Shown here one piece after another: positions 7,004 through 23,442 of a DNA stretch of 64,000 nt. Below the pieces are notes generated by a model, which saw only the letters and a program-made list of their open reading frames with translations, did not search any database and was not told the DNA's origin. Both the position numbers and the translations under genes were made by a program. The stretch's first letter is position 1. Each line of letters opens with the position of its first letter. Origin of the DNA: an uncultured virus (IMG/VR IMGVR_UViG_3300025736_000009) (Duplodnaviria > Heunggongvirae > Uroviricota > Caudoviricetes); IMG/VR virus record IMGVR_UViG_3300025736_000009; one strand, 5' to 3'.

Positions 7004-7067
7004 CAAGCCTTATTGCATATTTCACATAAATCATATGCCATAACCTACCCAAGACCTGAGAGGAGGT

Positions 7068-7238: not shown

Positions 7239-7580
7239 TATTTTTAATCAAATACCAACTTTTATTATACAAATATACTATTGAGGCACCAGTTGGCAAG
7301 TACTTTATTCACTTTTCTGCAGAACGAAAAGGCTAACAATAGCAAACCACAAAAAATAAAGAATGAAGACATTACATCTTCTAATGCATTTTTCTACCTC
7401 TTTTCTTCTATAAATATATTTTCTTTTCTATAGACAGCTAATTCAAAGTATAAGAAGAATCATCAGTATTAGTTACTTGACGATCTTTACACTCTTTACA
7501 GAGATGCTCTTGATCTATATCTGGCATATCTGCTGGATGTTCATTAATTTCTTTACCACAGTTATCACAAAAATACTTAA

Positions 7581-8458: not shown

Positions 8459-10252
8459 TTACTGTGCCAACTCAACCATAGAACATAACTCATTTATATA
8501 TATTTTGGTTGACTCATCAACTGTTCTAAGCTCACGAGCAGTTTCTACAAAGCCATTGGCTAGTTGTACCATTGTATCAACAAAGCCAACACGCTTTCCA
8601 CCAGTCTTTAAGGTATTTCTGCTTCTCATGCTCTTAGCAGGAAGCTTACCTACAAGTCCGCCATTTGTTTCAGCATGTTGTCTGTGTCTACCAACTCTAA
8701 TTACACCTACAGGAAATACACCCAAACACTTAGGTTTTTTATCTGAAGAATAAACTTCAGCAGTAAGATTATCATTTTTATAGCTACCACATTCCTGGGC
8801 TGTTTTTATAATCCATTCTTTAGAAGGAGGATTATCTAAGTCAACTTCCAAGTTGCCTTTAACAGCAGCTATACGATTTAATACTAACGTAAGATGAGCA
8901 AACTCTAACGATTTATGCTTTTTAGTAGAAGCACTCATATCACATACAATATCTGCTCTTACTATACTACCATCAGCATAATGAATAGTAGGCATAGATG
9001 CATCAGGAAGAATAACAGCAACTCCTTTAAAGAGGTCTGCTTCAGATTGAAGTTTCATACCATCAGAAGGATTGTGATATTCAATTCCAAAATGTTCTCT
9101 ATAGCTTGGTATCTCTCCACTCAAAGAGGGTTTCAACACTCTATCAATAGCCGCACTTTCGAATCTCCTATAAATAGGTTGATTCTTATAATCAAACTTA
9201 TCATTTGATTTTGCGACTTCTGAATAAGGAACATTAGATTTAAGAGACTTAGATTGCCTCTTAGCTTTAGAAAAACTAGCTTTAGGAAGAACAGGACATC
9301 CATTTCTTCCAATAAATCTAAGCCCACCACGACAATTGATAAGACTATCAATATCATGGTTATGAATTACTTCCTGAAAAGAAGTAAGACTATTAGCGGC
9401 AGACTTACTTATAATAACACTATCATTAAGGTTCATATCCATACAAACAACATTCATTGCTGCCAGCGGAGGAAGAACATTTACTCCTTTAATGTGAACT
9501 GGAGGCAAGCTTGCTCCTACAATAGGAAGCACATGAGATAGTCCTTTTTGAACAGCATAACGATTCAAAGGACATAAATGTGCAAGTGGTTGAATACCTA
9601 CTGCTAATGGATAGCCATGAATATCTACTCTATCAGCAGTTTTACCAGGATCACCAACATTAGTAGCAGCACATCGAGTAAGTTTTTTAGTTGTAAGCTC
9701 TTTAAAGAAACTCAATCGTCTAAGAGCCTCAGTTTCAGGACCGCTACTACCTTTTAACATAGGTAGCTGTTCACCATAAAGGCAAAAGGTATTACTTTGA
9801 ACTACCTTTTCAAATTCAGTAGTTGGATTATCATCATTCCAAGAAACAGCTCCTTTATAGAGTTCATTTAACGCAACCATCATCAAATTACGAAGCATAC
9901 TAAGAATTTCTTCATCAGAATTCTTGGCAAGAACTCTTATAATCTGACTAGCATATTCAGGCTTTTTTGTTATTCTTAGTATATACTTACCTACAGTATC
10001 TATAAACTGAGGAAGTAACTCAATACCACTATGCCCATCTTCATTGATAGGCTTATAGTCTATTACATATCCCTTTCTAAAAACAGGACATATACCACTA
10101 GGAAGTATAATCTTATCATCATATGTTGGAATTCTAACAACACACAATGGTTTATTAATAACACCAAAGAAAAATTCATTATTTACTTTAGTAATTTCAA
10201 ACGACTCTTTTGAACAAGAAGAAATTACCATAGTATTATCTGCTGATATCAT
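8459..10252 (-). CDS. Phage DNA-dependent RNA polymerase, beta-like subunit (compact)
   Basis: Colinear RpoB-like motifs: NLNDSVIISK (NFEDSILVS), DGMKL...FKGVAVILPDASMP (GDKM...NKGV...EDMP), RADIVCD, VGVIRVGRHRQH (VGYMYMLKLNH), TGGKRVG (FGGQRFG). Confidence 0.85.
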   Translation of the reverse strand: MISADNTMVISSCSKESFEITKVNNEFFFGVINKPLCVVRIPTYDDKIILPSGICPVFRKGYVIDYKPINEDGHSGIELLPQFIDTVGKYILRITKKPEYASQIIRVLAKNSDEEILSMLRNLMMVALNELYKGAVSWNDDNPTTEFEKVVQSNTFCLYGEQLPMLKGSSGPETEALRRLSFFKELTTKKLTRCAATNVGDPGKTADRVDIHGYPLAVGIQPLAHLCPLNRYAVQKGLSHVLPIVGASLPPVHIKGVNVLPPLAAMNVVCMDMNLNDSVIISKSAANSLTSFQEVIHNHDIDSLINCRGGLRFIGRNGCPVLPKASFSKAKRQSKSLKSNVPYSEVAKSNDKFDYKNQPIYRRFESAAIDRVLKPSLSGEIPSYREHFGIEYHNPSDGMKLQSEADLFKGVAVILPDASMPTIHYADGSIVRADIVCDMSASTKKHKSLEFAHLTLVLNRIAAVKGNLEVDLDNPPSKEWIIKTAQECGSYKNDNLTAEVYSSDKKPKCLGVFPVGVIRVGRHRQHAETNGGLVGKLPAKSMRSRNTLKTGGKRVGFVDTMVQLANGFVETARELRTVDESTKIYINELCSMVELAQ

Positions 10253-10256
10253 ATAA

Positions 10257-11882
10257 TTAACCTTCCTCTACTTTCTTTAGTGAACTTACAAGATTGTTAG
10301 TAAACCAGGACGCAACATCGTCTACTGGCACAATCTCTCTAAAGACAGTATTTAGTTTCTGTAATTTACTAAACTTACTTTTTAGCAGATGACAGATACT
10401 AAATGGAGTATTCACCATAGCAGCATCTCTTAAACTTTGCCCAGCAAGTGCTTGAACAACCTTACCATATACCTCCCCATTTAATCCCTCACTAGCAAGA
10501 ATAGGACCAACTCTATCCCAAGTATATCCAGATTTTGCTGTAAGTAAAGAATACAATGTCTTTGCAGAAAACTTCTCTGCGTGTTTTTGATCAAAGCACA
10601 ACTCAAGACTCTGGGTAGAAGCATCAAGCCACTCTTTATGAGTAACAGGAAGTTCCTCTCCTCTTGTCTTTAAATCTTCTAACCATGCATGTCCACAATA
10701 ATGCATAATAGACAACGCACCTATCCAAAGCTTCTGATCCATCCTTCGTACCAGAAGAATATCTTCAGTAACATCATTAGAAGAAACAACATCTTCTTCT
10801 TCTTTTATTGAAGAAGAACTCTTCCACTTATTTGTATCTTCATCATATATTAATGAAGAAAAAGAAGAATCATCTATAAATTGATGATCTTTATATGTAT
10901 ATACAGTTCGCTTAGGTTTAACACCAAGAACCTTACTTACAAGATTATCATAATGTTTTCTACACTCAGCAACAGCTGCTGGATTCTTTAATAGATGAAA
11001 GTTAAGAGTATCTCCATCGTTGTCACCTTCAACGAGTTTCATAAAAGAAGATACATCATCAAATTCACCCATCAATGCAAACATATCTGCTGGAACATAA
11101 ATACAGAAACTGTCTGCTTTAGATTGGCTTTTCATCTTTCTGAGCTTAATTCCTAATACATCTGTAGTAGGCCATCGAGACAAAAGACCATAACTTCCAG
11201 GATTAGCAATAGGAGCTAACTCTTCTATTTTGTCCTTAATCTTCTCTGCAGTTGAAGACTCAGGATTATCTCTCAAAAGAACAGAAAGTCTATTCCTTTC
11301 AGATGTTCTTCTATTAGAAGAATCATTATTAAGCTTACTAATTACTTTAGTACTAAGCCCAACTTCACCTATGTTAAGTGAACTTATAATACCTTTCTTA
11401 TAATTCTCTGAAGTAAATGCATCTTCTCTTACATCTACTACAGCTACAAGAGCACCAGAATACTCTTGTCTTGGTCTTCCAAGCTTTTGATCAAGCTCTC
11501 TTCTTACAAGCTCAGCATATGTAGACGCCCAAATCTTAATTGAAGATCCAATCTTTTGTTTATCATCAAAAAGAATAGCATCTACTATCTTGTTAGAAGC
11601 AACAAGGATAGGAGTAAGGCGCTTTACACCAGCACCTATTGAATACAGATTAGTCCTAAGACTCCAAGGTATACAAATACTCTTGATCTTAGGTCCTCCT
11701 TTATATGCTATCCAACCTTCTCCATCAGAGGAAGAAGCACCAACATCTATACATACTGGCTTACCAGCAAATGCTGGATCAAGAATTGTACCAGAAAAAG
11801 ACTTTTCAGCAACATCAGAGAAATCTAATCCTCCGATGATAGGAAACGCCGCAGTTACAAAACAACGATTTTCTTGTTCCAT
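10257..11882 (-). CDS. Phage DNA-dependent RNA polymerase, beta'-like catalytic subunit (compact)
   Basis: RpoC-like motifs: LGRPRQEYSGALV (LGKRVDYSGRSV), LLSRWPTTDVLGI (LLNRAPTLHRLGI), EGDNDGDTLNFH (NADFDGDQMAVH); DNDGD at 11010-11024. Confidence 0.88.
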   Translation of the reverse strand: MEQENRCFVTAAFPIIGGLDFSDVAEKSFSGTILDPAFAGKPVCIDVGASSSDGEGWIAYKGGPKIKSICIPWSLRTNLYSIGAGVKRLTPILVASNKIVDAILFDDKQKIGSSIKIWASTYAELVRRELDQKLGRPRQEYSGALVAVVDVREDAFTSENYKKGIISSLNIGEVGLSTKVISKLNNDSSNRRTSERNRLSVLLRDNPESSTAEKIKDKIEELAPIANPGSYGLLSRWPTTDVLGIKLRKMKSQSKADSFCIYVPADMFALMGEFDDVSSFMKLVEGDNDGDTLNFHLLKNPAAVAECRKHYDNLVSKVLGVKPKRTVYTYKDHQFIDDSSFSSLIYDEDTNKWKSSSSIKEEEDVVSSNDVTEDILLVRRMDQKLWIGALSIMHYCGHAWLEDLKTRGEELPVTHKEWLDASTQSLELCFDQKHAEKFSAKTLYSLLTAKSGYTWDRVGPILASEGLNGEVYGKVVQALAGQSLRDAAMVNTPFSICHLLKSKFSKLQKLNTVFREIVPVDDVASWFTNNLVSSLKKVEEG

Positions 11883-13424: not shown

Positions 13425-13946
13425 TTAATACCATAAACTATTAAGATAGGTTTTTATCTTAGCTTTCAAAGAATCACAAGGCATGTAATATGTACTAGTA
13501 CTACGATTGTAGTAATTTAGTTCACATAGTATATTATGTACTATTGACCTCAAATACATAAAATCACACCTATCAACATATATGTTGTTATTACGTATTT
13601 CTAAAACAAGAGGTACCTGATGTATACTAGCTTCTTGCTTTATACATTCATAAATCCTAACATCAGGAACATCTTTAGCATATAAAATCATAGTCTGAGA
13701 TTCATCAGACTTAGTAGTTGTATCTTCTATCTCAGAAAAAATGTCAACAAGACATTTAATAATAGTAGGTTTTCCAATTGTAGTAAAACTATCAAAATTA
13801 GTAAACTTTAACTTAAGAATCTCACTACAAAGTTTACTAGTTAGATCATTTAATGCTTTTCTATCTTCAGCTTTGACATATATTGCTTTATTATTTACTG
13901 ATGGATTACCATCAGCAGTAAAAGCAAAATCATGTATATATATCAA
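13425..13946 (-). CDS. Hypothetical protein
   Basis: 173-aa ORF overlapping upstream gene. Confidence 0.6.
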   Translation of the reverse strand: MIYIHDFAFTADGNPSVNNKAIYVKAEDRKALNDLTSKLCSEILKLKFTNFDSFTTIGKPTIIKCLVDIFSEIEDTTTKSDESQTMILYAKDVPDVRIYECIKQEASIHQVPLVLEIRNNNIYVDRCDFMYLRSIVHNILCELNYYNRSTSTYYMPCDSLKAKIKTYLNSLWY

Positions 13947-14322
13947 TAGGCTGTTTCAACATAAGTTTTGAAATTTCTTGAATTATAGTATAGAATTCAG
14001 CACAAACTATTGTATGTGAATCAGAAGACTTTACTACATTTGTATGAAATATATAACCCTCTATTTTGGGTTTACTGCATTTCTTTGTATCTATAGAAAC
14101 ATCACTAATTGCCTTACATTCCATTTTTCTAATAGCCTTTTCTATTAGAGCCTCTAGTTCTCTAATTAGTTTCCTTAGCTCCCTGGCTTCTGTATTTACT
14201 TGTGTAAGTCTATTCCTTAAACCATAGCCATTTTCTTCTAGACACTCAGTAGATGCACATGAAGCATCATGACTACTTTCTATAACAACATCTCCAATAA
14301 TTACTTTAGACATTAGAATCAT
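13930..14322 (-). CDS. Hypothetical coiled-coil protein
   Basis: GGAGG RBS; preceded by a leader-motif copy at 14337. Confidence 0.65.
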   Translation of the reverse strand: MILMSKVIIGDVVIESSHDASCASTECLEENGYGLRNRLTQVNTEARELRKLIRELEALIEKAIRKMECKAISDVSIDTKKCSKPKIEGYIFHTNVVKSSDSHTIVCAEFYTIIQEISKLMLKQPIDIYT

Positions 14323-14482
14323 TCCTCCATTTTCTAAGACCGAAAGAGAGATAGTTTATATAGAACAATATCTACAATAGAGAAGCTAGAACAATCATAA
14401 ACTTTAACGTGTAGGATATAAAGCAACAATAGAAAGAGAAGGAAAAACGTGCAAAGGAAGTTAAAACATACTTTCTTCCTAA

Positions 14483-14938
14483 TTAGTTAATGCTACCAAT
14501 CATTTCAACTGGAAGCCAATTAGCAATTAGCTTTCTATGGCATTTGGAATCAACAGAAGATTCCCAACAACAAAATGTCACTTCCTTTTCGTAAGGAAAT
14601 AATTCACTAAGCACTATAGCAAGACCAATTGCTCTGTTCTCACTATATGTATATGTAACTTTTTCTACTTGACTTCGGAATAGAGAAACATACTCATTCC
14701 AATTCAACTTGCTCTCTTTATACCAATGTAACAAGTTAATACTTGGCTTAAGGACCTCTCCAAGTCTATAGTTAATATCTTGTATGTCTTGCATAGTCTC
14801 AAAGTCCTTTGGCTTAGATCGAGATATACTAACATACTTTACAGACTCAAAAGGATCTTGACAAGTTACTAACTTTTTATCAAGATCAAAGAAACATGCA
14901 GTATGTATTGTCAGATCAGTTCTGTATCTATTACTCAT
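14483..14938 (-). CDS. DUF488 family protein
   Basis: SISRSKP, LKPSINLL..YK, WNEYVSLF, FCCWE...CHRKLIANWL. Confidence 0.8.
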   Translation of the reverse strand: MSNRYRTDLTIHTACFFDLDKKLVTCQDPFESVKYVSISRSKPKDFETMQDIQDINYRLGEVLKPSINLLHWYKESKLNWNEYVSLFRSQVEKVTYTYSENRAIGLAIVLSELFPYEKEVTFCCWESSVDSKCHRKLIANWLPVEMIGSIN

Positions 14939-15147
14939 TACTTTCTTCCTTTGTTATTACTACATACTCTACAGAATAGCTTTCCATTACGAAAAGCCCA
15001 ACCTTGCGTTTCAATTGCGCGAGTCTTTACTTCTTTAGAAGATTTATTAAGTTCCCCTTTTATATATGCTGAACAACCAACACTAGCGCAATAAATTGTA
15101 GTAGGAACACAACAAGTAAGTAGTTTGAATTCCATAACAATTCTCAC
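14938..15147 (-). CDS. Small Zn-finger-like protein
   Basis: CASVGC...GW...FCRVC. Confidence 0.55.
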   Translation of the reverse strand: MRIVMEFKLLTCCVPTTIYCASVGCSAYIKGELNKSSKEVKTRAIETQGWAFRNGKLFCRVCSNNKGRK

Positions 15148-15575
15148 TAAAACTCCTTATTGAGAGATTTATAAGCATCAACACAAAATGTAGGCAATTT
15201 CTGCTTTAGAGCTTCAACTACTGCTTCAACATTAAGACCATCGCCATAGTTATCTATAGCATGGGCAATACTATCCTTGTTGGCTTCTACAACTTGTCCC
15301 GATTGATTAGCTCGTATCACAGCCAACATCTTACCTAAATGTTGAGCACACACGTCCTTGTAAAACATCCAAATACGCTCATCGTAGATGCCTAACATAT
15401 CTAACTGCATCAATGCTCCAAAGCCGCCAAAAGCGTCTTGTGGATCTATTATGCTGCCTTGTTCCAGTATTTGCATACAGACACTTAGCGCACCTGGATT
15501 ACCATTAGACATTGCGATAACAGCATCCTTGATTGACATATCTAACTGAATTCTGGTATTGTTATTATTAAACAT
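15147..15575 (-). CDS. Phage hypothetical protein (GNPGA motif)
   Basis: MSNGNPGALSV...LDMLGIY...IWMFYKDVC; start MFNNNN after AAGGAG. Confidence 0.7.
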   Translation of the reverse strand: MFNNNNTRIQLDMSIKDAVIAMSNGNPGALSVCMQILEQGSIIDPQDAFGGFGALMQLDMLGIYDERIWMFYKDVCAQHLGKMLAVIRANQSGQVVEANKDSIAHAIDNYGDGLNVEAVVEALKQKLPTFCVDAYKSLNKEF

Positions 15576-15628
15576 TAGTATACATACTCCTTTGAAGATT
15601 ATCGAAAAGTGATAAAAAGATACAGAAC

Positions 15629-15829
15629 TCAAACTCCTTTCTGGAGTATAACACATTCAAGAGAATCAATAGGAAGCTCTACTATAGCATCATCAGATAA
15701 TACAGCAATAGTAACTACCTTACCTTTGGCGTTTATGTGAGTATCTAATACACTCACACGCTCACCATAGTTATCTCCGTAAACCACGGAACACACATCT
15801 CCACTTCCAATCTGGTTATTACTAAGCAT
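15629..15829 (-). CDS. Small beta-rich (KOW/SH3-like) protein
   Basis: GDVCSVVYGDNYGERVSV pattern; AAGGAG RBS. Confidence 0.55.
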   Translation of the reverse strand: MLSNNQIGSGDVCSVVYGDNYGERVSVLDTHINAKGKVVTIAVLSDDAIVELPIDSLECVILQKGV

Positions 15830-15889
15830 GTTTATTCTCCTTTAATAGGTAATACTTTGAGCATATAGTGCATATTCTTTTCTCACCAA

Positions 15890-16084
15890 TCATCTGCATT
15901 GTTCACCAATAGCTTCAGAAAGGTTTTCAAGTGTTTCTCTAGTCCTCTGTAGGAGATTGATTAGTGTACGTATATCATCACTAAACAATACATTTTTAGA
16001 AAACACAAGTTCATTCAGAATATCTACGTAGTCTTTGAACTCTTTACAATTAGCTCTTATCTTACTTCCCATTACTATATGCAT
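15890..16084 (-). CDS. Hypothetical protein
   Basis: GGAGG RBS. Confidence 0.6.
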   Translation of the reverse strand: MHIVMGSKIRANCKEFKDYVDILNELVFSKNVLFSDDIRTLINLLQRTRETLENLSEAIGEQCR

Positions 16085-16183
16085 TTCAATTCTCCTCCAT
16101 AGTAAAATCTACTAAAACACTTACGTGTCAAATAGAAGGCTAAGCACACAAACAGAAAGCTGCGTGTGCAAAAGAAGTTAAAT

Positions 16184-16387
16184 CTACTCCTCTTTAGAAC
16201 ATTTAGAACAACAAGAAGACACCTCCTTACAGTCGTAACACATAGGTCGCTTACAAAGTCTACAACGTGGAATACATGCCTTTGAACCTACTACCATTTC
16301 TACAAGCTCATCAGCAACAAAATGTTGAGAAGATTTGGTAAAATCCTCTTGTTGATCCACACCCAACACAAATGTATTTGCTTTCAT
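16184..16387 (-). CDS. Small Cys-rich protein
   Basis: Several CxxC pairs; contains a copy of the 26-bp palindrome. Confidence 0.55.
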   Translation of the reverse strand: MKANTFVLGVDQQEDFTKSSQHFVADELVEMVVGSKACIPRCRLCKRPMCYDCKEVSSCCSKCSKEE

Positions 16388-16672
16388 CTAACATGAAAAT
16401 GATTCTGCGCAGTTACGACAGTAATGAGATATGTCATAACATGTAGAACACATACAACGACTACAACCCTCACAAACCAATATGTATTTAGCATCAACAT
16501 ATGATTCTTTCTTACCAGGATATACTATTACTTGTTTGCAGTTAACACATGTTTCTCCTGATATCCGAGGCTGTCGCTTATTAAGCATTCCACCTCCACA
16601 TCGTGCACATCGCGCATAGACATCATATAGTGGCTTTTCACATCTACAGGTCTTAGAATATATGTTTGACAT
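16388..16672 (-). CDS. Cys-rich Zn-finger protein
   Basis: Five CxxC pairs; likely start MSNIYS. Confidence 0.6.
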   Translation of the reverse strand: MSNIYSKTCRCEKPLYDVYARCARCGGGMLNKRQPRISGETCVNCKQVIVYPGKKESYVDAKYILVCEGCSRCMCSTCYDISHYCRNCAESFSC

Positions 16673-16680
16673 GATAACCT

Positions 16681-16857
16681 TTACTCCTTTTCCAAACAAG
16701 CTTTACATGGAATCACCTCAAAAGGAAAGTCAACCTCAGAGAGATCCCCATCTAAGTCCTTAACTACGAAGAGAGTATGAAGGTAAATCTCAAGCCCGCA
16801 CTTTGTACGAACGATATTACCCTCTTCTGATATTTGATGTACTCTTTCTTTTCTCAT
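16681..16857 (-). CDS. Small hypothetical protein
   Basis: Likely start MRKERVH after AAGGAG; H...TKCG...CKAC. Confidence 0.55.
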   Translation of the reverse strand: MRKERVHQISEEGNIVRTKCGLEIYLHTLFVVKDLDGDLSEVDFPFEVIPCKACLEKE

Positions 16858-17452
16858 ACCATATAATCTCCTTAAAAGTAACCGAAAAGATAGTAGAAAA
16901 GTAGTAAAAAACCTACAGAAAACTAGTAGAAAATATACACAAACACATGTGTATATATAAGTAATCAAGATAATGGCCGAAGGCCAAATAGTAAGATAAA
17001 CAAACGCGCAAACAGCAACGCGTCCAGAGTCAATTAAATACCCCTGGCTACAGTTGTAACATCATAATACAAATGTAAGCACCTGTTTTTTACATATTTT
17101 ACTCTCAATTACATATGTAGCATCCCTCTTCTATCTAATAACATAAATGTATATATCTAATTCTAAAACCACAATATATACTAGAGAAAAGAGAAAACAA
17201 TAGATAAATACACTGCAGAGCGCGAGCCATAAGATAAATCTACACTCACACACACACACACACACATAGGGGTTAGTGCGAATATAGATTCTTAAAATAT
17301 CTCTATACACACATACACACACACACTCCTCCAATACACTAGGAAACTTACAATACCCTAGGAGACTTTCGCTATTATCAGAGATTATCTCCCTTACGTA
17401 AAGAAAACCAATGAATAAGCACGTAAACAACAAGCACGACCTCCCTCCCTAT

Positions 17453-17613
17453 GACATGAAATCTATAGATTTCATTAGAACAAAATCTTCGATTTTATGA
17501 ACTGAAGTAAACAAGAAGATCAAATTAGACCTTAAGATCAAATTAGACCTTCTCCACAAAAAGAGACATGAAATCTATAGATTTCATTAGAACAAAATCT
17601 TCGATTTTATGAA
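17453..17613. repeat. 49-bp direct repeat (2 copies) containing a 20-bp perfect palindrome
   Basis: GACATGAAATCTATAGATTTCATTAGAACAAAATCTTCGATTTTATGAA at 17453-17501 and 17565-17613. Confidence 0.95.
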
Positions 17614-18069
17614 AGGAAAGAACTCCTTTCTTGACGATCAAACCTCAAGAAGATTTTACCAAATCTTCTCATCACACACCCCCAATATACGCCTAGTCAA
17701 GAGAAGGGCCGAAGGCCCATAAGTAGAGAAAAGAAAACACATACTCACTACAACAAGAGAATTGAATACAATCTCCTCTACACAACACAAACAATATATA
17801 CAATTAATAGTTATTAACGAGAAGATACAGTAGTATCTTCTTAACGAAAGATAATTAAACACCTAACATCAAGAAGATTTTACTAAATCTTCTCATTAAC
17901 TTTATATTAACTATATATAAAGAAAAGAAAAGAACTCCTGCCCTAAGTATATGTGGAGAGGATCTAATTAGATCCTCTTAATGTATATAATATATATAAT
18001 ACACCCAGGGCAGGAAAAGGAGAAGACCTTATCTGATCTTCTCCACAAGAGAATAGCAGCTGCTGTTAC

Positions 18070-18288
18070 TTAGTTGTCTTCCTTCATACGACAACGCTTT
18101 GTTGATCTACATATACGTAGATCATAATCAAAGAAATATGCTTCTTCATCACCAGACATGTTGTTATCTCCAACAACACAAGAAATAACATCAGCCAATC
18201 CATCACATATATCTTTTACATTCTTACCTTCTACAACCAATTCCAATCTAAGATGAGAAGGTTTTACTAAATCTTTTTGATGTGCCAT
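18070..18288 (-). CDS. Early-type hypothetical protein
   Basis: AAGGAG RBS and leader motif. Confidence 0.65.
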   Translation of the reverse strand: MAHQKDLVKPSHLRLELVVEGKNVKDICDGLADVISCVVGDNNMSGDEEAYFFDYDLRICRSTKRCRMKEDN

Positions 18289-18379
18289 AGTTTACATTGT
18301 TCTCCTTTGTAAAAAAGACCGAGAAACTACAGACTTAAAAAAGTTACAGACACACTTACAACTGAGTGAATGCTAGTAA

Positions 18380-18688
18380 CTACAGATTATCATTAACTGT
18401 AGTCATAAGCACATCAAGTTGACTTTCACATGCTTCTAGTCGTCTCTGCTGATCTGAATGTCTATTATTCTCATACATCATAGCCTTCAACTTATCAGCA
18501 ACTTGCTCTAGCCCAGATATTATCTCCTTTGCTTTACTAAGCCTACGATTAAGCTCAACAACCTCAGAACTAAGATTGTTAATTCTATGTCTATGAGATT
18601 CAAGATCACTAGATGCTGCTTCATGCATATCATGCACTATAGCCTTCATTGTATTAGATGTTAGATATCTTTCATCTATTGTCATCAT
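18380..18688 (-). CDS. Coiled-coil early-type protein
   Basis: Heptad pattern; GGAG RBS and leader motif. Confidence 0.65.
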   Translation of the reverse strand: MMTIDERYLTSNTMKAIVHDMHEAASSDLESHRHRINNLSSEVVELNRRLSKAKEIISGLEQVADKLKAMMYENNRHSDQQRRLEACESQLDVLMTTVNDNL

Positions 18689-18963
18689 GATAGTTGTTCT
18701 CCATTATTCTAGACCGGGAATAGTTACAGACTTACAAATTATCAATCAATCAATCAATTAAGTATCCGCACTTCGCGTACAAATACAGACACGTACTTAC
18801 ACACTAGTACAATAGCATCCCATAAGAAGATTTATTTAAATCTTCTCCATATACAACAGTACCAATAGAAACTAGAATACAAACGTAACCAAAGAACTTT
18901 GTTCTTTGTGTAAAAGGTAACTTCGTTACCTGTTCTCTATAGATAAATCGCCTCCTTCTTTTA

Positions 18964-19224
18964 CTACCAGCCACGAAGTATTGTTATATCTCTTTCAGGA
19001 ACAACAATTGTTCTATCAGCATCCACCTGCCAGATAACAACAATAACCAAAAGAACTACACCTACTATGACAGCAAGACACCCACAACATTTCTTTACTG
19101 TCTTTATGTTTTTGGCGAATTCCTTATCAAAGTCTTCTATAAGCTTGTCATCTATACGTTTCTTACATATAGAACAGTATTTAGCCTCATCTTTGGTTAG
19201 AATCCCACAGTCTTTGCAATACAT
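18964..19224 (-). CDS. Zn-ribbon plus TM protein
   Basis: MYCKDCG...YCSIC and hydrophobic C-terminal helix. Confidence 0.7.
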   Translation of the reverse strand: MYCKDCGILTKDEAKYCSICKKRIDDKLIEDFDKEFAKNIKTVKKCCGCLAVIVGVVLLVIVVIWQVDADRTIVVPERDITILRGW

Positions 19225-19319
19225 CAGTAACGACGTATCCTTTCGTTGTAGACCGAGAAGAGTATAGAGTTTAAGTCTAATTGAAGTAGACCTATGTAGA
19301 AAGATGACAACAGCTACTA

Positions 19320-19757
19320 CTATCTCTTATCAGCAAATAAGAAAGTTCTCTTATCAGAGGAATACTTTCTCATACCTCGGCGTCGGTCATAGCCCTTAAC
19401 AGGCTTACCATCCTTGAAGATGGTTATAGTAAAGACTGTATCCCTGAATGTTGCTCCAGGATTATTAGACTTTCGAATGTCATTCTGTTGTGCTGAAATA
19501 ACAACCATCTTATCAGCAGTTGTTCCCTTAAACACGTTGGAATAGAATACCTGAGCATGCAGGCTTCTATCTGATGTGTAGTCTATTGTTACCTTGGGCA
19601 AGAAGTTCTTACCATTTGTAACTTTGGGAATAGTAACTGTTCGACTAACAGGGATGTCACCTTGAACTGCCTGATGAATGCCTTCACAAAGAGTATTCAT
19701 CCAATTGCCAGATTCAAGTTCCTCGTAATTGCTGTTATTAGCGTTTACTGTATGCAT
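19320..19757 (-). CDS. Early-type hypothetical protein
   Basis: AAAGGA RBS and leader motif. Confidence 0.7.
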   Translation of the reverse strand: MHTVNANNSNYEELESGNWMNTLCEGIHQAVQGDIPVSRTVTIPKVTNGKNFLPKVTIDYTSDRSLHAQVFYSNVFKGTTADKMVVISAQQNDIRKSNNPGATFRDTVFTITIFKDGKPVKGYDRRRGMRKYSSDKRTFLFADKR

Positions 19758-19860
19758 GATTTGTTCTATCCTTTCGCAAGATAGGAAAACGAGAAAGAAA
19801 AGAGTTTAATCCTATAAAGATATAGAACTTCGTGAATAGTTAAAAGAGACCATCTTCTTC

Positions 19861-19959
19861 TTATGCGCGTCTAGAAGTAGCATATGTCACTACCTCAGCA
19901 AGTCGAATCAGCCACTTAACAAGTGGAGACAAGTAAAGTTCTTCTGTCTTGATATACAT
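19861..19959 (-). CDS. 32-aa small ORF (not in track)
   Basis: MYIKTEELYLSPLVKWLIRLAEVVTYATSRRA; AAAGGA RBS and full leader motif. Confidence 0.6.
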   Translation of the reverse strand: MYIKTEELYLSPLVKWLIRLAEVVTYATSRRA

Positions 19960-20037
19960 TTGTTTTCCTTTCTAAGAACGAAAGGTAAAGAGTTTAATCA
20001 CTAAATATAGTGACTTCGAAAAAACACACACGCATGT

Positions 20038-20217
20038 CTATGCTAACTCATGATAGCATTTCATGCTACAAACCTTACCCTCAACAAGAACCTGTTGGTT
20101 CTCAGTAAGAGCCTCCATGCCATAATAATCAGCACGCTCAGTCAGTAGAATAAAAGCACTTCTAGCATCAGAAGTCTCTATATCTACTTTCTTACCACAT
20201 ACAACACAGATACCCAT
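20038..20217 (-). CDS. 59-aa Zn-binding small protein (not in track)
   Basis: MGICVVCGKK...VCSMKCY; AGGAGG RBS. Confidence 0.65.
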   Translation of the reverse strand: MGICVVCGKKVDIETSDARSAFILLTERADYYGMEALTENQQVLVEGKVCSMKCYHELA

Positions 20218-20329
20218 AAGAATACTGTCCTCCTAAATCTCAATCTCAGTGTAGTTCTGTTGTTTCATGTTATTTCCTTCTGAGCAGGCTTTACCGTCGT
20301 ACTCAGGACCAATTACTATTAGTAGTTAC

Positions 20330-20536
20330 CTAAATACTTACTTTATCCTTTCTACTGTTTCTTGATAGTATGCTTTCTTCTAGACCACGAAGGTAAGAAG
20401 CAGAGAATTTCCTTTTCAGGCTCAGGTTTTCTTTGTTGTTGTAGTCACAATTTGAATAGTGACTACCAAAGTCGAGATCTGCCCCACACATAAGACAGAG
20501 ATGATGCCTATCTTTACGAGCATAACTACTATACAT
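20330..20536 (-). CDS. Small Zn-binding protein
   Basis: CLMCG...HYSNC; leader motif. Confidence 0.6.
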   Translation of the reverse strand: MYSSYARKDRHHLCLMCGADLDFGSHYSNCDYNNKENLSLKRKFSASYLRGLEESILSRNSRKDKVSI

Positions 20537-20639
20537 TACAATACATTCTCACTTTCATATACAGACCGAGAAAAGAAAAGAGTCGTTTAAGTCTATAAAG
20601 ATAGACCTATGAAGTCACAACAATACAAGAGTAATACCT

Positions 20640-21224
20640 CTATTTAGATTGATCGACCTTAATAACCTTGAGCCGCAGCTTCAGCAACCCCTTAGCAGCA
20701 ACCAGAGCCTTGTTAGCTATAGGCTTAGATGCCCCATAACCGGCCATAGCAGCCCCAACAGCGGCCTTGCTGCCTATAAGCGTAGCATCCTTGCTTCCTG
20801 CCCTTATTCTCTTACAAACAGGGATAGAAACGCCTATTGCTTTCTTAGTAGATGTTACAGTAGTATTACAAAATGCTTTAGCAGCATCATAGATACCCTT
20901 GGCTTTAATTGCCTTAGCCAAAGCAACAGCAGATACCACAGGATTGCTCTCCATATTTGCTTTGACCGCCTGAACATCAAACAGCCCAGTTGTGATTTCA
21001 GATCTCTTAACAGCAAGAGCCTTAGTAATCTCAGAGAAAGGAACACCAATATATTCCTCAGAACCATGAGAACATTTAGTCTTGTTCCCTTTGAACTGAC
21101 AAGGAGAGAGGTATATGGTTTCTAATTCCATGTTCACACACTCCAGTATCTTAGACTTACAGCCACCATCACATGTTTCCTTTGTGCTGTTTCCGGTTAC
21201 AAATACATTAGTTTGTCTTAGCAT
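20640..21224 (-). CDS. Early-type Ala/Lys-rich hypothetical protein
   Basis: 194-aa ORF with RBS and leader motif. Confidence 0.7.
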   Translation of the reverse strand: MLRQTNVFVTGNSTKETCDGGCKSKILECVNMELETIYLSPCQFKGNKTKCSHGSEEYIGVPFSEITKALAVKRSEITTGLFDVQAVKANMESNPVVSAVALAKAIKAKGIYDAAKAFCNTTVTSTKKAIGVSIPVCKRIRAGSKDATLIGSKAAVGAAMAGYGASKPIANKALVAAKGLLKLRLKVIKVDQSK

Positions 21225-21301
21225 GATCTACATTCTATCCTTTCGAGATAGGAAAACGAGAAGAGTAGAGTTTAATTCTATACAAGTATAGAACTTCGTA
21301 G

Positions 21302-21553
21302 TTAATACCCACGTTTTTCCTTAAGAGCTTTTTTCTCAGCTATTCTTTTCTCCTTTAACTCTCTTCGAGCGCACTCGCCAACTCGTCTTTGTTCATACAT
21401 CACATCTACTATTGATCTCATTGGAGCAGCAGTTGCTGTTGTCTCTGCTGCAAAGTTTGCTCTATTTTGAGAACATTTCTGTTCGGGTTTGCCTTCGTGT
21501 ATAAGTATTATTACACACACTGCTATTATTATTATCAAAACCAACGCTTTCAT
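21302..21553 (-). CDS. Membrane-anchored small protein
   Basis: N-terminal hydrophobic helix; GGAGG RBS and leader motif. Confidence 0.7.
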   Translation of the reverse strand: MKALVLIIIIAVCVIILIHEGKPEQKCSQNRANFAAETTATAAPMRSIVDVMYEQRRVGECARRELKEKRIAEKKALKEKRGY

Positions 21554-21630
21554 ATTGTCCTCCAGTTTCTAGACCGAGAAGTAAAAAGTTTAATCCCCAT
21601 ATACAGAAACTTCGTTAATCAATAGTAGCA

Positions 21631-21852
21631 CTAGAGTTTGCCAATCAAACTATCTAGTATGGTTTTCTCACTAGGAGCAGCCTCTAGAAGAGCAGAAGCA
21701 AGTGTTTCTCTTGCCTGTGATCCAAAGAGACTCTTAATCCCTTTTACAGGATTAATTCCTTGAAGAACAGCAGCAGATACAATAGCTGCCAAATTAGATG
21801 CTGGGATATAGCCTCCAACTGCGTTACCAGAAAACCGAATGCAGGCACTCAT
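21631..21852 (-). CDS. Early-type hypothetical protein
   Basis: Start moved to MSACIRF (GGAGG RBS); the longer track ORF runs through the leader motif. Confidence 0.65.
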   Translation of the reverse strand: MSACIRFSGNAVGGYIPASNLAAIVSAAVLQGINPVKGIKSLFGSQARETLASALLEAAPSEKTILDSLIGKL

Positions 21853-21938
21853 AATCCATTTATCCTCCAATCTAGACCGAGAAGAAGAAAAACGTTTAAC
21901 TCTATAAACATAGAGCTTCGCATAGTAGATGCTACACA

Positions 21939-22190
21939 TCAGTAACTGAGATAATTGTTCTCTTCAATTACTAGATTAGTAGCAGCTGTTCGTCTAGCAA
22001 GGTCATCCCCAGCATCCAGCAAAGGACTAGCAGCTTGTTCTGCTACAACATTGATAGCTACTATCAGTCCCCAGAAGAGAACTACTGCTAGCCCTACTCG
22101 CCCCCATCTAGGTCTAGGAGGAAGAAACATTCTCAGCACTGTAAGTGTGAGAACAGAAGCGAGACCTATTACTACCATCCATCCAAACAT
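21939..22190 (-). CDS. Two-TM membrane protein
   Basis: Two hydrophobic helices; AAGGAG RBS. Confidence 0.7.
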   Translation of the reverse strand: MFGWMVVIGLASVLTLTVLRMFLPPRPRWGRVGLAVVLFWGLIVAINVVAEQAASPLLDAGDDLARRTAATNLVIEENNYLSY

Positions 22191-22235
22191 TTGATATCTC
22201 CTTATTCATACAGACCGAGAAGAGTTAGATACTAG

Positions 22236-22466
22236 TTAGTTGTTGCTTGCCCTCCAGTAGTTGCAGACACATCTTACTACCATGTCTACAGACCAAGACT
22301 TCTTTGTTGACCATCTACGAAACACGAGGAAGAACGTGCTTCCCCATAGAGCGCTTAGAATAAGCCACTCATTAGCATTAACAGGTAATCTCGATATGCC
22401 ACCACATACAGCAGCAATCGTCAACCCTATGAACAGCCCTACATTCAGCTTATTATACTTAAACAT
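22236..22466 (-). CDS. Two-TM membrane protein
   Basis: Two hydrophobic helices; AAGGAG RBS and leader motif. Confidence 0.65.
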   Translation of the reverse strand: MFKYNKLNVGLFIGLTIAAVCGGISRLPVNANEWLILSALWGSTFFLVFRRWSTKKSWSVDMVVRCVCNYWRASNN

Positions 22467-22545
22467 TCAAGTTACTCCTTATTTCTAGACCGAGAGATAG
22501 TGAGTTTAATCCCCATGTGTATAGAGACTATGTTATCCCCTATTG

Positions 22546-22989
22546 CTATACCTTATACACACCACCTTCCTTAATAAGACCAGCCGCTATCCTATTTGCT
22601 GTTGCTTCTAATGGGAGATTCTCTAATTCTCTTTGACCAGCAGCCACATCATCTCCACATCTTTCCACAATACCGCTATAGAGGCAATGCATCTCTACCA
22701 TATCCTTATGCAGTGCATCATATCCTCGTATGTTAAAGTCTATTGCATGTCCTATCTCATGATATAGAATTTCCTTCAACGTCTTAGTTACTCCATTACT
22801 CTTCAGGAAAGATAACACACTTGACACATTACCAGGTAGCTCTATAGATGGAGTCGTGTCCTTAGTAGAAACGTGAAACACAAAGTAACTACCAGTTGTT
22901 AGCTCGACATGTGAAAGACCATTGAGATCTAAGATCTTTCTGGCCTCACGTCTTAGCCTATTTACTTGGATTGCATTTTTAATACTCAT
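22546..22989 (-). CDS. HExxH zinc metallopeptidase-like protein
   Basis: ILYHEIGHA and downstream E..AN (LPLEATAN); start MSIKN after AAGGAG. Confidence 0.75.
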   Translation of the reverse strand: MSIKNAIQVNRLRREARKILDLNGLSHVELTTGSYFVFHVSTKDTTPSIELPGNVSSVLSFLKSNGVTKTLKEILYHEIGHAIDFNIRGYDALHKDMVEMHCLYSGIVERCGDDVAAGQRELENLPLEATANRIAAGLIKEGGVYKV

Positions 22990-23079
22990 TATCATATACT
23001 CCTTTGTTTTATTTGTCTGAGAGAGGGGTGGGGCTCTAAAGATACATACCCCCCTATCTCTCAAACTATATACCAGGAG

Positions 23080-23272
23080 ACTCTATGAAAAAAAAATTAC
23101 AAAAAAATTAGTTAGCTATAAGGTCGAGAGGATTTAGAAGATATAGTGGAGAGAGCCTGATTTTACTCTCTTGTGAAGAAAGTATATTCATACTCTCTTG
23201 TGGAGAGAGCCTGATTTTACCAAATCTTCTTGTTGATCAGATACTCTATAAAAAAATTACAAAAAAACTAGT
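23080..23272. repeat. Direct repeats in the divergent intergenic region
   Basis: ACTCTAT-(A)n-TTACAAAAAAA-TAGT at about 23080 and 23243; TGGAGAGAGCCTGATTTTAC at 23147 and 23201. Confidence 0.8.
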
Positions 23273-23290
23273 AAAAGCCGCATAATACAC

Positions 23291-23355
23291 TTGTATTTTT
23301 TCGTAAAATGTTCTATAATATATATATGATAAGAGGAAATCTTTAAAGATTTCCT
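23291..23355 (+). promoter_or_regulatory. Sigma70-type promoter with downstream 22-bp perfect palindrome (putative operator)
   Basis: TTGTAT-N17-TATAAT (23291-23319); AGGAAATCTTTAAAGATTTCCT at 23334-23355. Confidence 0.7.
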
Positions 23356-23442
23356 TTGAATAAACTACTTTGTATTTTATGAGACGACGACGACGATGAT
23401 GATAGAAGTATATAAAAAAGTTTTGGGAAGGAAAGTATATAT

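What the first reader, a model, noticed from the sequence alone, without database searches (positions are those of the whole stretch)
14337..22532. Covarying hairpin leader element repeated before twelve early genes
Seen: on the coding strand each gene is preceded by TCTCGGTCT (variants TCTCGTTTT, TTTCGTTCT) 15-29 nt before the ATG. Eight copies (19250, 19786, 19975, 20563, 21253, 21571, 21874, 22487) add CGAAG or CATAG, a hairpin, and TTAAAC 8-13 nt upstream. Stems differ but stay paired (GTCTA/TAGAC, TCACTA/TAGTGA, CTCTAT/ATAGAG, TTCTATAC/GTATAGAA), and three use G-U pairs that form only on the mRNA-sense strand (e.g. TCTCTAT/ATGGGGA). Inference: covariation, wobble polarity and variable spacing favour an RNA (or ssDNA) element over a duplex promoter. 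It could be a processing, stability, translation or antitermination signal, or a hairpin promoter for the phage RNAP. It divides the arm into one-gene cassettes that could also shuffle by recombination.
Basis: partly seen in the sequence, partly recalled or inferred. Interest (0 to 1): 0.85.

Follow-up and report, generated by a model that had tools for sequence, protein, structure and literature searches.

The report
Repeated hairpin-plus-box cassettes between phage genes
An uncultured giant phage punctuates a row of twelve small unrelated genes with the same two-part signal, an RNA hairpin after each stop codon and a conserved nine-base box before each ribosome-binding site; this is a familiar kind of phage gene punctuation written in a new sequence form, and how it works is still inferred.

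Summary
On the minus strand, 12 genes between 14.3 and 22.5 kb carry TCTCGGTCT or a close variant 15-28 nt before the ATG. Eight also carry C(G/A)(A/T)AG, a hairpin and TTAAAC 8-13 nt upstream.

The hairpin is well supported. All 63 cells pair, 6 of 8 pairs change on both sides, and all 8 copies fold on the mRNA-sense strand with RNA parameters. With DNA parameters, 2 of 8 do not fold on either strand.

It is two separable modules, not one leader. The hairpin sits just after the preceding stop codon and is not a canonical terminator. The box, with its pyrimidine tract, sits before the Shine-Dalgarno and is predicted to pair with it.

There is no Rfam match and no sigma-70-like promoter. No copy turned up outside this phage.

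The phage encodes a divergent RNA polymerase beta-prime-like protein. Its distant relative 0305phi8-36 has published phage-specific promoter candidates, and I find that these also hold a covarying hairpin.

Best reading, at about 0.4: an intercistronic RNA hairpin plus a phage-specific promoter that overlaps an anti-Shine-Dalgarno strand. An all-RNA processing or translation signal is nearly as likely. It resembles the PeSL cassettes of T4-like phages, so it is a new variant of a known kind.

The parts
22487..22532 (-). Full copy 1: CATAG, 7-bp stem with 2 G.U pairs, TTAAAC, 8-nt spacer, TCTCGGTCT. Precedes gene 22236-22466.
21874..21920 (-). Full copy 2: CGAAG, CTCTAT/ATAGAG stem, TTAAAC, 11-nt spacer, TCTCGGTCT. 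Precedes gene 21631-21852.
21571..21614 (-). Full copy 3: CGAAG, weak stem with 4 G.U pairs, TTAAAC, 8-nt spacer, TCTCGGTCT. Precedes gene 21302-21553.
21253..21298 (-). Full copy 4: CGAAG, TTCTATA(C)/(G)TATAGAA stem, TTAAAC, 8-nt spacer, TCTCGTTTT. Precedes gene 20640-21224.
20563..20611 (-). Full copy 5: CATAG, GTCTAT/ATAGAC stem, TTAAAC, 13-nt spacer, TCTCGGTCT. Precedes gene 20330-20536.
19975..20018 (-). Full copy 6: CGAAG, TCACTA/TAGTGA stem (fully compensated relative to the other copies), TTAAAC, 8-nt spacer, TTTCGTTCT. Precedes the 32-aa ORF 19861-19959.
19786..19832 (-). Full copy 7: CGAAG, TTCTATA/TATAGGA stem with 1 G.U pair, TTAAAC, 9-nt spacer, TCTCGTTTT. Precedes gene 19320-19757.
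19250..19296 (-). Full copy 8: CATAG, GTCTA/TAGAC stem with a 7-nt loop, TTAAAC, 10-nt spacer, TCTCGGTCT. Precedes gene 18964-19224.
22212..22220 (-). Core only (TCTCGGTCT), 15 nt after the preceding stop codon. Precedes gene 21939-22190.
18316..18324 (-). Core only (TCTCGGTCT), preceded by TAAGTCTGTAG instead of hairpin and TTAAAC. Precedes gene 18070-18288.
18711..18719 (-). Variant core TCCCGGTCT, preceded by TAAGTCTGTAAC. Precedes gene 18380-18688.
18755..18775 (-). Degenerate hairpin module (CGAAGT-gcggat-ACTTAATTG), about 35 nt upstream of the variant core at 18711-18719.
   Evidence: read directly
14337..14359 (-). Variant core TTTCGGTCT with ATAAAC 8 nt upstream, and a decayed hairpin module. 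Precedes gene 13930-14313.
18019..18044 (-). Canonical GC-rich hairpin plus T-run terminator at the end of the arm's last unit. It contrasts with the eight element hairpins.
18890..18931 (-). Two terminator-like hairpins after gene 18964-19224. They mark the end of the row that carries the eight full copies.
10257..11882 (-). 541-aa RNA polymerase beta-prime-like protein with an invariant G-D-x-D-G-D motif. It is the candidate enzyme for the box.
8459..10252 (-). 597-aa protein, adjacent to the 541-aa gene and co-conserved with it in relative G003. Unassigned.

Best explanation
This is a two-module gene-boundary cassette in the non-structural arm of a roughly 200-kb 0305phi8-36-like myophage of a Gram-positive-type host.

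Module A is written CRW-AG[6-7 variable pairs, 4-7 nt loop]UU-AAAC. It is an RNA hairpin on the message strand that starts 3-28 nt after the stop codon of the preceding gene. It lacks a U-tract and is not an intrinsic terminator. I infer that it marks the end of a cistron, as a barrier to 3' exonucleases, a processing mark or a pause or attenuation signal.

Module B is a pyrimidine tract ending in TCTCGGTCT, 5-13 nt before the Shine-Dalgarno. It is the obligatory gene-proximal part. I infer that it is a phage-specific promoter read by a polymerase other than host sigma-A holoenzyme, and the phage's own beta-prime-like RNAP is the candidate.

The 5' half of Module B doubles as an anti-Shine-Dalgarno strand. 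Read-through RNA would therefore keep the ribosome site paired, while RNA started at the box would be open. This is the logic known for T4 genes e, soc, 49 and I-TevI.

Shown: the motif, the hairpin, the strand polarity, the positions, the predicted Shine-Dalgarno pairing, and the absence of sigma-70-like and terminator signatures.

Inferred: every functional assignment.
For: Position
- Module A follows stop codons and Module B precedes the Shine-Dalgarno.
- The core occurs in 12 genes and the hairpin in 8. No hairpin occurs without a core downstream.
- Two of the four copies that lack an intact hairpin (18711-18719 and 14337-14345) lie downstream of terminator-like hairpins, where a new start would be needed.

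Promoter and terminator scans
- Sigma-70-like sites are not enriched: 30 found against 38.2 +/- 5.2 in shuffles. None sits at an element.
- The phage does have TTGAAA-N17-TATAAT and GGTATAAT sites elsewhere.
- None of the 8 hairpins was flagged as terminator-like, and AAAC follows each helix. Canonical terminators close the units at 18044-18019 and about 18.9 kb.

RNA level

Shine-Dalgarno pairing
- Pairing probability is 0.62-0.99 (mean 0.82) in 11 arm leaders against 0.47 in 147 other genes of the phage, Mann-Whitney p = 6e-6.
- Leaders cut just after the core fall from 0.74 to 0.50, Wilcoxon p = 0.013.

Phage RNA polymerase
- G-D-x-D-G-D is invariant in 11 homologues.
- 15 of 15 PDB sequence hits, at weak E-values of 0.67-2.2, are RNAP largest subunits aligned on NADFDGD.
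- Foldseek gives 211 hits at E <= 0.001, and the 48 listed rows (ranks 1-50, with gaps) are RNAP entries, including the phage AR9 and PhiKZ enzymes.

Precedents
- 14 phage-specific promoter candidates in 0305phi8-36 were proposed as targets of its own RNAP (PMC2147016, passages).
- Short phage-specific promoter motifs serve the two-barrel RNAPs of P23-45 (bioRxiv 10.1101/2022.12.01.518664, passage).
- T4 gene e logic (PMC3014915, passage).
Against: - No transcription start, RNA end or expression datum exists for this phage.
- The base after the core is not conserved (A, G, C and T all occur), which is unlike many phage-RNAP promoters.
- Relatives that keep the RNAP gene (G003, G007, G008) lack the box. 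Co-occurrence of enzyme and motif is therefore not shown.
- The RNAP gene itself has no box upstream.
- In 3 of 12 leaders the predicted Shine-Dalgarno pairing does not fall on truncation.
- A pyrimidine tract will pair with a purine-rich Shine-Dalgarno almost by default.
- The RNAP fold match has low TM-scores (0.15-0.19) on a model with pLDDT 70.
- About 40 kb of the genome was not seen, and ORFs under 200 aa outside the window were not scanned for sigma factors.
Confidence: 0.4

Rival explanations
1. All-RNA intercistronic element. The row from 22995 to about 18900 is one polycistronic transcript. The base and flanks of Module A (CRW/AG...UU/AAAC) are the recognition site of an endoribonuclease or RNA-binding protein. 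This protein cuts the transcript into stable one-gene messages, or protects them. The CGGUCU of the core, presented in the loop of the Shine-Dalgarno-sequestering hairpin, is a class-wide operator for translational control or cleavage. The comparison is with T4 RegA or RegB, or with processing by host RNase Y or E next to a hairpin.
For: - The sense-strand RNA polarity and the invariant helix base with sequence-free upper stem and loop are typical of protein recognition of an RNA hairpin.
- No terminators lie between the genes, but canonical ones lie at the ends of the row.
- No conserved sequence lies upstream of the hairpin.
- The Shine-Dalgarno is strongly paired in full-length leaders, and CGGTCT lies in the loop of most predicted structures.
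- T4 RegB cuts in intergenic ribosome-binding regions of early messages (PMC3014915, passages).
Against: - The core-bearing genes at 18711-18719 and 14337-14345 lie behind terminator-like hairpins and long gaps, where an internal RNA signal alone would not give expression.
- No nuclease or RNA-binding protein was recognised among the scanned proteins. Most of them are ORFans, so this is weak.
- No promoter for the proposed long transcript was identified in 23065-23442.
Confidence: 0.3
2. Hairpin promoter. The hairpin with TTAAAC is itself the promoter of the phage RNAP, recognised as an extruded or single-stranded DNA structure in the manner of the N4 virion RNAP. The core is then the conserved start of the transcript.
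For: - Conserved bases flank a sequence-variable stem, as in N4 promoters (PMC4496689, passages).
- The phage has its own non-canonical RNAP.
- In 0305phi8-36 the published promoter-candidate motif appears to be the CGTTCGCACG site that I found. All 19 sites are on one strand and have covarying outer pairs.
- A distantly related two-barrel RNAP, crAss-like gp66, prefers single-stranded templates (bioRxiv 10.1101/2020.03.07.982082, passages).
Against: - With DNA parameters the hairpins are worth 0 to -3.6 kcal/mol, and 2 of 8 do not form on either strand.
- All 7 stem mismatches, and the invariant closing pair, are G.T on the sense strand. On the template strand, which N4 uses, they would be A.C.
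- Loops are 4-7 nt and not conserved.
- Four genes have the core but no intact hairpin.
Confidence: 0.12
3. Mainly a recombination or duplication scar. The repeats are linker sequences, or a small selfish repeat, spread by gene-cassette shuffling, with little regulatory role of their own.
For: - Twelve non-homologous ORFs share the leader. There was no BLASTP hit below E = 0.07 among the 22 arm proteins.
- Leaders 21253-21298 and 19786-19832 are nearly identical through the Shine-Dalgarno region but precede unrelated genes.
- PeSL elements mediate such exchanges (PMC2839356, abstract and passages).
Against: - Stems differ while pairing is kept, including one fully compensated stem. This means selection on structure, not mere copying.
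- Placement relative to the stop codon and the Shine-Dalgarno is strict.
- The three IMG/VR contigs of this phage show no cassette differences. The window and G002 are 99.993% identical over 45.9 kb.
Confidence: 0.06

Closest known systems
PeSL (promoter-early stem-loop) cassettes of T4-like phages (Arbiol et al. 2010, PMC2839356; Comeau et al. 2014, PMC4122927; abstracts and passages read)
   Same: Repeated composite intergenic units of about 50-100 bp flank small ORFans in a plastic region. Each holds a stem-loop and a gene-proximal signal, and each ends in a Shine-Dalgarno and an ATG. Stem sequences differ between phage pairs.
   Different: PeSLs carry sigma-70-like -35 and -10 boxes and G/C-rich stem-loops that terminate transcription. 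Here no sigma-70-like hexamers are present. The stem is A/U-rich with no U-tract. The conserved parts are the helix base, AAAC and a CG-containing 9-mer.
Phage-specific 21-bp promoter candidates of Bacillus phage 0305phi8-36 (Hardies et al. 2007, PMC2147016; passages read)
   Same: The phage lineage is the same (major capsid protein 35% identical). The motif is phage-specific and lies in noncoding spaces of the non-structural arm. The phage encodes its own RNAP. In my scan the motif, CGTTCGCACG, has 19 sites on one strand and sits in a hairpin with covarying outer pairs.
   Different: The sequence is unrelated. That hairpin has a conserved loop and inner stem and is followed by a T-rich box. 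The RNAP there is described as YonO/RdRP-like in one chain (PMC7824862, passage). I assume, without the figure, that my motif is the published one.
N4 virion-RNAP hairpin promoters (review PMC4496689; passages read)
   Same: A short hairpin whose stem may vary as long as it pairs, with conserved bases around it, in a phage that has its own RNAP.
   Different: N4 has 3 promoters and a template-strand DNA hairpin with a 3-nt purine loop centred at -11, read by a T7-like enzyme. Here there are 8 copies, the wobble pairs favour the sense strand, the loops are unconserved and 4-7 nt long, and the DNA stability is negligible.
T4 gene e, soc, 49 and I-TevI leaders (review PMC3014915; passage read)
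   Same: The Shine-Dalgarno is sequestered by an upstream strand in long transcripts. A class-specific promoter lies in the DNA that encodes that strand.
   Different: In T4 this is shown by experiment and uses late promoters of the host RNAP with gp55. Here it rests only on folding predictions.

Membership tests
PeSL cassettes (T4-like phages) | Repeated intergenic unit that flanks small ORFans and ends in a Shine-Dalgarno and an ATG | tested here: met
   12 non-homologous small genes carry the unit.
PeSL cassettes (T4-like phages) | Sigma-70-like -35 and -10 promoter with an AT-rich upstream region | tested here: not met
   30 sigma-70-like sites against 38.2 +/- 5.2 expected, and none at an element. 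Reading the 12 leaders directly shows none.
PeSL cassettes (T4-like phages) | Stem-loop that acts as a transcription terminator or attenuator | tested here: inconclusive
   The hairpin is present. It is A/U-rich, worth -2.8 to -8.5 kcal/mol, and is followed by AAAC rather than a U-tract. Its function was not assayed.
PeSL cassettes (T4-like phages) | Recombination between copies gives indels of cassettes among close relatives | not testable with these tools
   Only near-identical contigs of this phage were found.
Intrinsic (Rho-independent) terminator | G/C-rich stem immediately followed by a U-tract | tested here: not met
   0 of the 8 hairpins were flagged by the terminator scan, which did flag 12 other sites. 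The bases 3' of each helix are AAAC.
N4-type hairpin promoter | Stable DNA hairpin on the template strand with a conserved 3-nt loop at a fixed distance from the start | tested here: not met
   DNA-parameter energies are 0 to -3.6 kcal/mol and 2 of 8 copies are unfolded. Wobble pairs lie on the sense strand only, and loops are 4-7 nt and unconserved. The start site is unknown.
N4-type hairpin promoter | Giant T7-like virion RNAP | tested here: inconclusive
   No such hit among 23 window proteins and 61 proteins of 200 aa or more from G002. About 40 kb of the genome was unseen.
Any Rfam family | Match at the family's gathering score | tested here: not met
   The whole window at gathering score gives only a tRNA. 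The stretch 13-24 kb at E <= 1 gives one chance-level hit of 15.6 bits against a gathering score of 105.
T4 gene e-type sequestered leader with embedded promoter | Shine-Dalgarno paired in long transcripts | tested here: met
   In silico only: mean 0.82 against 0.47, p = 6e-6.
T4 gene e-type sequestered leader with embedded promoter | The gene's own transcript starts inside or after the 5' strand of the helix | not testable with these tools
   No RNA data are available. Truncated leaders are predicted to be more open (0.74 to 0.50, p = 0.013), but not in 3 of 12.
Integron attC site (consensus recalled, from no call) | Imperfect palindrome of 57-141 bp with RYYYAAC and GTTRRRY cores and a nearby integron integrase | tested here: not met
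   The element measures 27-29 nt. Only 1 of 8 copies reads GTTAAAC. No integrase was found among the scanned proteins.

The most novel reading that the evidence does not exclude
The covarying hairpin with its fixed helix base, together with the nearby box, is the start-and-stop code of an uncharacterised, highly divergent phage RNA polymerase lineage, the 0305phi8-36-like jumbo phages of Firmicutes. Each phage of the lineage writes the same architecture in its own sequence: CRWAG-hairpin-TTAAAC...TCTCGGTCT here, and NNN-CG[TTCGCA]CG-NNN plus a T-rich box in 0305phi8-36. That would make hairpin-dependent transcription punctuation a second, independent invention beside N4, here acting through the RNA or the non-template strand.
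Probability: 0.2. Interest if true: 0.8.

Novelty: new variant of a known kind. Interest (0 to 1): 0.5.

Why it matters
Repeated promoter-hairpin cassettes between small phage genes are a known theme. This copy differs in ways that can be used.
- It has no host-type promoter or terminator signature.
- It shows clear RNA-strand polarity.
- It carries a built-in anti-Shine-Dalgarno strand.
- It sits in a phage that encodes a polymerase so divergent that Pfam and PHROGs miss it.

If the nine-base box is that enzyme's promoter, the eight to twelve natural variants amount to a ready-made mutational series for defining the specificity of an unstudied RNAP lineage.

The parallel hairpin that I found in the published 0305phi8-36 motif suggests a rule for the whole lineage.

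If instead the hairpin is a processing site, it points to an unknown hairpin-specific RNase among the ORFans.

The element is also a compact candidate part for insulating genes in synthetic operons in Gram-positive hosts.

Tried and rejected
RNA data
- For window 18000-23400, no RNA holder was listed.

Search for the element elsewhere
- Megablast of 18-23 kb against GenBank phages found no match.
- The arm protein 20640-21224 found only 3 identical contigs in IMG/VR.
- Relatives reached through the capsid protein (G003-G006) and through the RNAP (G007, G008) lack the box and the hairpin module (for G003-G006 only).
Of the 80 loci fetched, only L101, which is the same phage, had the context, judged by reading the flanks.
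- The longer pattern ending in AGA gave 10 loci. Four are from this phage's three contigs, with 3 copies each. Six are single coding coincidences.
- The metagenome scan with an alignment of the neighbouring 202-aa protein found the same phage and three distant hits.
- The genome-contig collection was not scanned.

Alignment and structure
- The MAFFT alignments A3 and A6 were out of structural register. I therefore built model R1 from two ungapped copies and re-aligned the rest to it.
- The first structure model, from a 2-sequence alignment, had pLDDT 35 and was unusable.

Ideas tested and dropped
- A switch by alternative pairing of the 3' arm with the core: only 2 of 8 copies had p < 0.07.
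- An ECF-sigma-like -35 AAC / -10 CGT reading (consensus recalled): the AAC-to-CG spacing is 11-16 nt (and my count), not the fixed 16-17 nt.
- Lambda nut (boxA and boxB, recalled): the loops are not conserved and the element repeats before every gene.
- A CRISPR-repeat or Cas6-like resemblance of hairpin plus AUUAAAC (recalled): noted only as a lead.
- RNase III site: the helices are too short (recalled).

Other
- The 597-aa protein gave no RNAP hit by sequence or profile against the PDB.
- A word search of the literature for the box returned 1,094 papers. The 8 that were listed are unrelated.
- A slip: the variant core was set at 18722 instead of 18719. This shifts that one leader's truncation point by 3 nt.

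Full report
**What the window is**

The window holds a myophage. I found a tail sheath, portal, major head protein, a terminase with an intein, RtcB and one tRNA. Genes run on the minus strand up to 23064 and on the plus strand from 23443.

IMG/VR holds three near-identical contigs of the same phage. G002 matches window 18099-64000 at 99.993% and extends 97 kb further. CheckV-type estimates and a 203-kb contig for one protein cluster put the genome near 200 kb.

The capsid protein is 34-36% identical to those of Bacillus phage 0305phi8-36 and Moorella phage MTATph1. Ribosome-binding sites are strong AGGAG-type.

On the minus strand, T[CT]TCG[GT]T[CT]T occurs 16 times in the window against 2.96 +/- 1.85 in shuffles, and 0 of 100 shuffles reach 16. 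Eleven of these lie 15-28 nt before the start codons of genes between 14.3 and 22.5 kb. A twelfth gene has TCCCGGTCT at 18711-18719.

In a 160.9-kb working sequence of the phage, the exact box occurs 7 times, only in this arm, and it is the most enriched word upstream of genes.

Eight copies add C(G/A)(A/T)AG, an inverted repeat and TTAAAC, 8-13 nt before the box. Of 126 TTAAAC sites in 160.9 kb, only 11 abut a stem of 5 or more pairs. Eight are these copies and three are unrelated sites. A scan that required both flanks and a stem found exact-flank hits only at the eight copies, and none in four relatives.

**The hairpin**

MAFFT put the copies out of structural register. I therefore built a covariance model from two ungapped copies and aligned all eight to it.

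On that alignment, 63 of 63 cells are standard pairs. Six of 8 pairs change on both sides (12 cells). Zero of 500 shuffles reach the observed values, and slid controls pair at 21-43%. There are two caveats: the alignment is fitted to the structure, and the copies are paralogues.

One copy (19992-20018) has an entirely different yet fully paired stem. The AG of CRWAG pairs with the TT of TTAAAC as an invariant A-U and G.U.

With RNA parameters all eight sense-strand copies fold alike, at -2.8 to -8.5 kcal/mol, summing to -53.9. The antisense sum is -23.8, with two copies near zero. With DNA parameters the strands are equal (-16.3 and -16.9), and two copies do not fold on either strand.

All seven mismatches in the variable stems are G.T on the sense strand. 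Two copies share an arm by descent, so these are perhaps four or five independent events. This is suggestive, not decisive.

Together these results favour an RNA hairpin on the message. They argue against a DNA cruciform or a dimeric operator.

**Two modules, not one**

Module A, the hairpin with its flanks, begins 3-28 nt after the preceding stop codon.

Module B, a pyrimidine tract ending in the box, lies 5-13 nt before the Shine-Dalgarno.

Four genes have the box without an intact hairpin: 22212-22220, 18316-18324, 18711-18719 and 14337-14345. The last two show decayed remains of Module A. No hairpin lacks a box downstream.

One gene in the row (20038-20217) and the first gene have neither part.

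The 22 arm proteins share no similarity with each other; the best BLASTP E-value is 0.07. The repeats are therefore not a by-product of gene duplication.

**What Module A is not**

None of the eight hairpins was picked up by the terminator scan. That scan did find GC-rich hairpins with T-runs at 18044-18019, 17718-17706, 17026-17001 and 16986-16974, and terminator-like hairpins near 18.9 kb. AAAC follows each element helix.

The phage therefore uses canonical terminators at the ends of units and something else between genes.

There is no Rfam match.

**What Module B adds**

Sigma-70-like sites are not enriched in the arm (30 found against 38.2 +/- 5.2 expected), and none sits at an element. 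Typical TTGAAA-N17-TATAAT and GGTATAAT sites do exist elsewhere in the phage.

Folding shows a second, unreported feature. The pyrimidine tract and the first bases of the box pair with the Shine-Dalgarno, and CGGTCT lies mostly in the loop.

Shine-Dalgarno pairing probability is 0.62-0.99 in 11 leaders, with a mean of 0.82. One leader had no recognisable Shine-Dalgarno and was dropped. The mean for 147 other genes of the phage is 0.47, Mann-Whitney p = 6e-6.

If the RNA is taken to begin just after the box, pairing falls from 0.74 to 0.50 (p = 0.013). In 3 of 12 leaders it does not fall.

This is the layout known for T4 genes e, soc, 49 and I-TevI. There a class-specific promoter lies in the DNA that encodes the 5' strand of a helix hiding the ribosome site (PMC3014915, passage).

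**The polymerase**

The 541-aa protein (10257-11882) has no Pfam, PHROG or PDB sequence hit, but it is conserved in relatives.

- An exhaustive profile search found 14 homologues.
- In 11 aligned sequences G-D-x-D-G-D is invariant.
- A profile search of the PDB gave 15 hits, all weak (E 0.67-2.2). All are RNAP largest subunits aligned on NADFDGD.
- A model with pLDDT 70 gave 211 Foldseek hits at E <= 0.001. The 48 listed rows (ranks 1-50, with gaps) are RNAP entries, including phage AR9 and PhiKZ non-virion enzymes. TM-scores are low, at 0.15-0.19.

I take it as beta-prime-like. The adjacent 597-aa protein is co-conserved but could not be assigned.

No sigma factor was seen among the proteins scanned. 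That set is incomplete.

**Relatives**

No relative carries the element.

- G003 (98% complete, capsid 58% identical) keeps the RNAP pair. In the matching arm it has other intergenic hairpins, GTTACAnnTGTAAC palindromes and GGTATAAT-type promoters.
- G004 has seven near-identical GC-rich terminator hairpins between small genes.
- G007 and G008 have their own GC-rich intergenic hairpins.

The most telling parallel is 0305phi8-36. Hardies et al. reported 14 phage-specific 21-bp promoter candidates and proposed them as targets of the phage's own RNAP (PMC2147016, passages).

My scan of that genome finds CGTTCGCACG as the top upstream word. It has 19 sites, all on one strand. The flanking bases form covarying pairs: pair 1 is CG 7, TA 7 and GC 5; pair 2 is TA 8, GC 7, CG 3 and AT 1. 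A T-rich box follows.

The paper's text does not mention a hairpin in this motif. I could not see its Figure 6, so the identity of the two motifs is assumed.

**Comparison with the known**

The closest concept is the PeSL cassette of T4-like phages (PMC2839356, PMC4122927). Position, composite nature and association with ORFans are shared. The sigma-70 promoter and the terminator-type stem-loop are not.

N4 hairpin promoters (PMC4496689) share the idea of a stem that may vary if it pairs. They differ in strand, loop, copy number and stability.

Earlier notes of this scan list many such cassettes in other phages. Those are unchecked leads, but they agree that the kind is common.

**Verdict**

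This is a real, structured, phage-specific two-module cassette. It is a new variant of a known kind.

- Most likely, at 0.4: an intercistronic RNA hairpin plus a phage-specific promoter that overlaps an anti-Shine-Dalgarno strand.
- Close second, at 0.3: an all-RNA processing or translation signal.
- The hairpin-promoter reading, at 0.12, is kept alive by the 0305phi8-36 parallel.

No expression data exist, so every functional step is inferred.

Noticed in passing
NC_009760.1 (loci L186-L196), minus strand, e.g. 207018, 205135, 181426, 144279: In Bacillus phage 0305phi8-36 the top upstream word, CGTTCGCACG, has 19 sites, all on one strand. It sits in a hairpin with covarying outer pairs and is followed by a T-rich yTTwTGTA box. 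It is probably the published 21-bp 'promoter candidate'. The text of that paper does not mention a hairpin in the motif.
   Followed up: partly
window 16870-18060: A repeat-rich stretch that is largely non-coding. It holds (CA)n runs near 17240 and 17310, a direct repeat of about 50 bp (about 17455 and 17560), several AGAAGATTT-N3-AAAATCTTCT hairpins (also near 16330, 18835 and 23235), and four canonical terminators. The IMG/VR contig G002 ends here, at window 18099.
   Followed up: no
window 10257-11882 (-) and 8459-10252 (-): A highly divergent RNAP beta-prime-like protein (G-D-x-D-G-D) that Pfam and PHROGs miss. Only 14 homologues were found among 1.84 billion representatives. Its 597-aa neighbour is co-conserved but unassigned.
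   Followed up: partly
G004 (L035-L036), 97.5-100.7 kb: Seven near-identical intergenic units, GATTGGGAGGGTCTAACGACCCTCCC plus a T-run plus CTCATGTG, lie between small genes in a distant relative. The layout is the same, but with a canonical terminator hairpin.
   Followed up: no
G003 (L021-L022), 31.7-41 kb: The palindrome GTTACA-N2-TGTAAC is repeated in the arm that matches this one. It looks like an operator. GGTATAAT promoters there have a TT(T/A/G)AAA box upstream.
   Followed up: no
window 28972-31770 (+) and 55919-64000 (+): LAGLIDADG-type inteins lie in the large terminase and in a giant ORF. The giant ORF has at least 2,694 aa in the window, runs on in G002, and also has a Cas4-like nuclease domain.
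   Followed up: no
window 310-771 (-), 25568-26128 (+), 24577-25167 (+): Pfam hits seen in routine scans: SocA/Panacea antitoxin-like domain (E 3e-19), PF07737 ATLF-like domain (E 5e-13) and DUF5662 (E 4e-33).
   Followed up: no
window about 14440-14470 and 16150-16175 (-): A second short repeat, AACTTC(C/T)TTTGCAC, lies just after two stop codons. At 14.4 kb it is part of a terminator-like hairpin.
   Followed up: no
window 4731-5162 and 6925-7437 (-): Two long stretches of 432 and 513 nt have no ORF by my crude gene calls and no Rfam hit. They may hold non-coding RNAs or missed genes.
   Followed up: no
window 23065-23442: The divergent control region holds two copies of T(A)ATTTTTTTGTAATTTTTTT...ATAGAGT, two copies of AAAATCAGGCTCTCTCCAC, a perfect palindrome GGAAATCTTTAAAGATTTCC, and a core-like TCTCGACCT with no gene behind it.
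   Followed up: no
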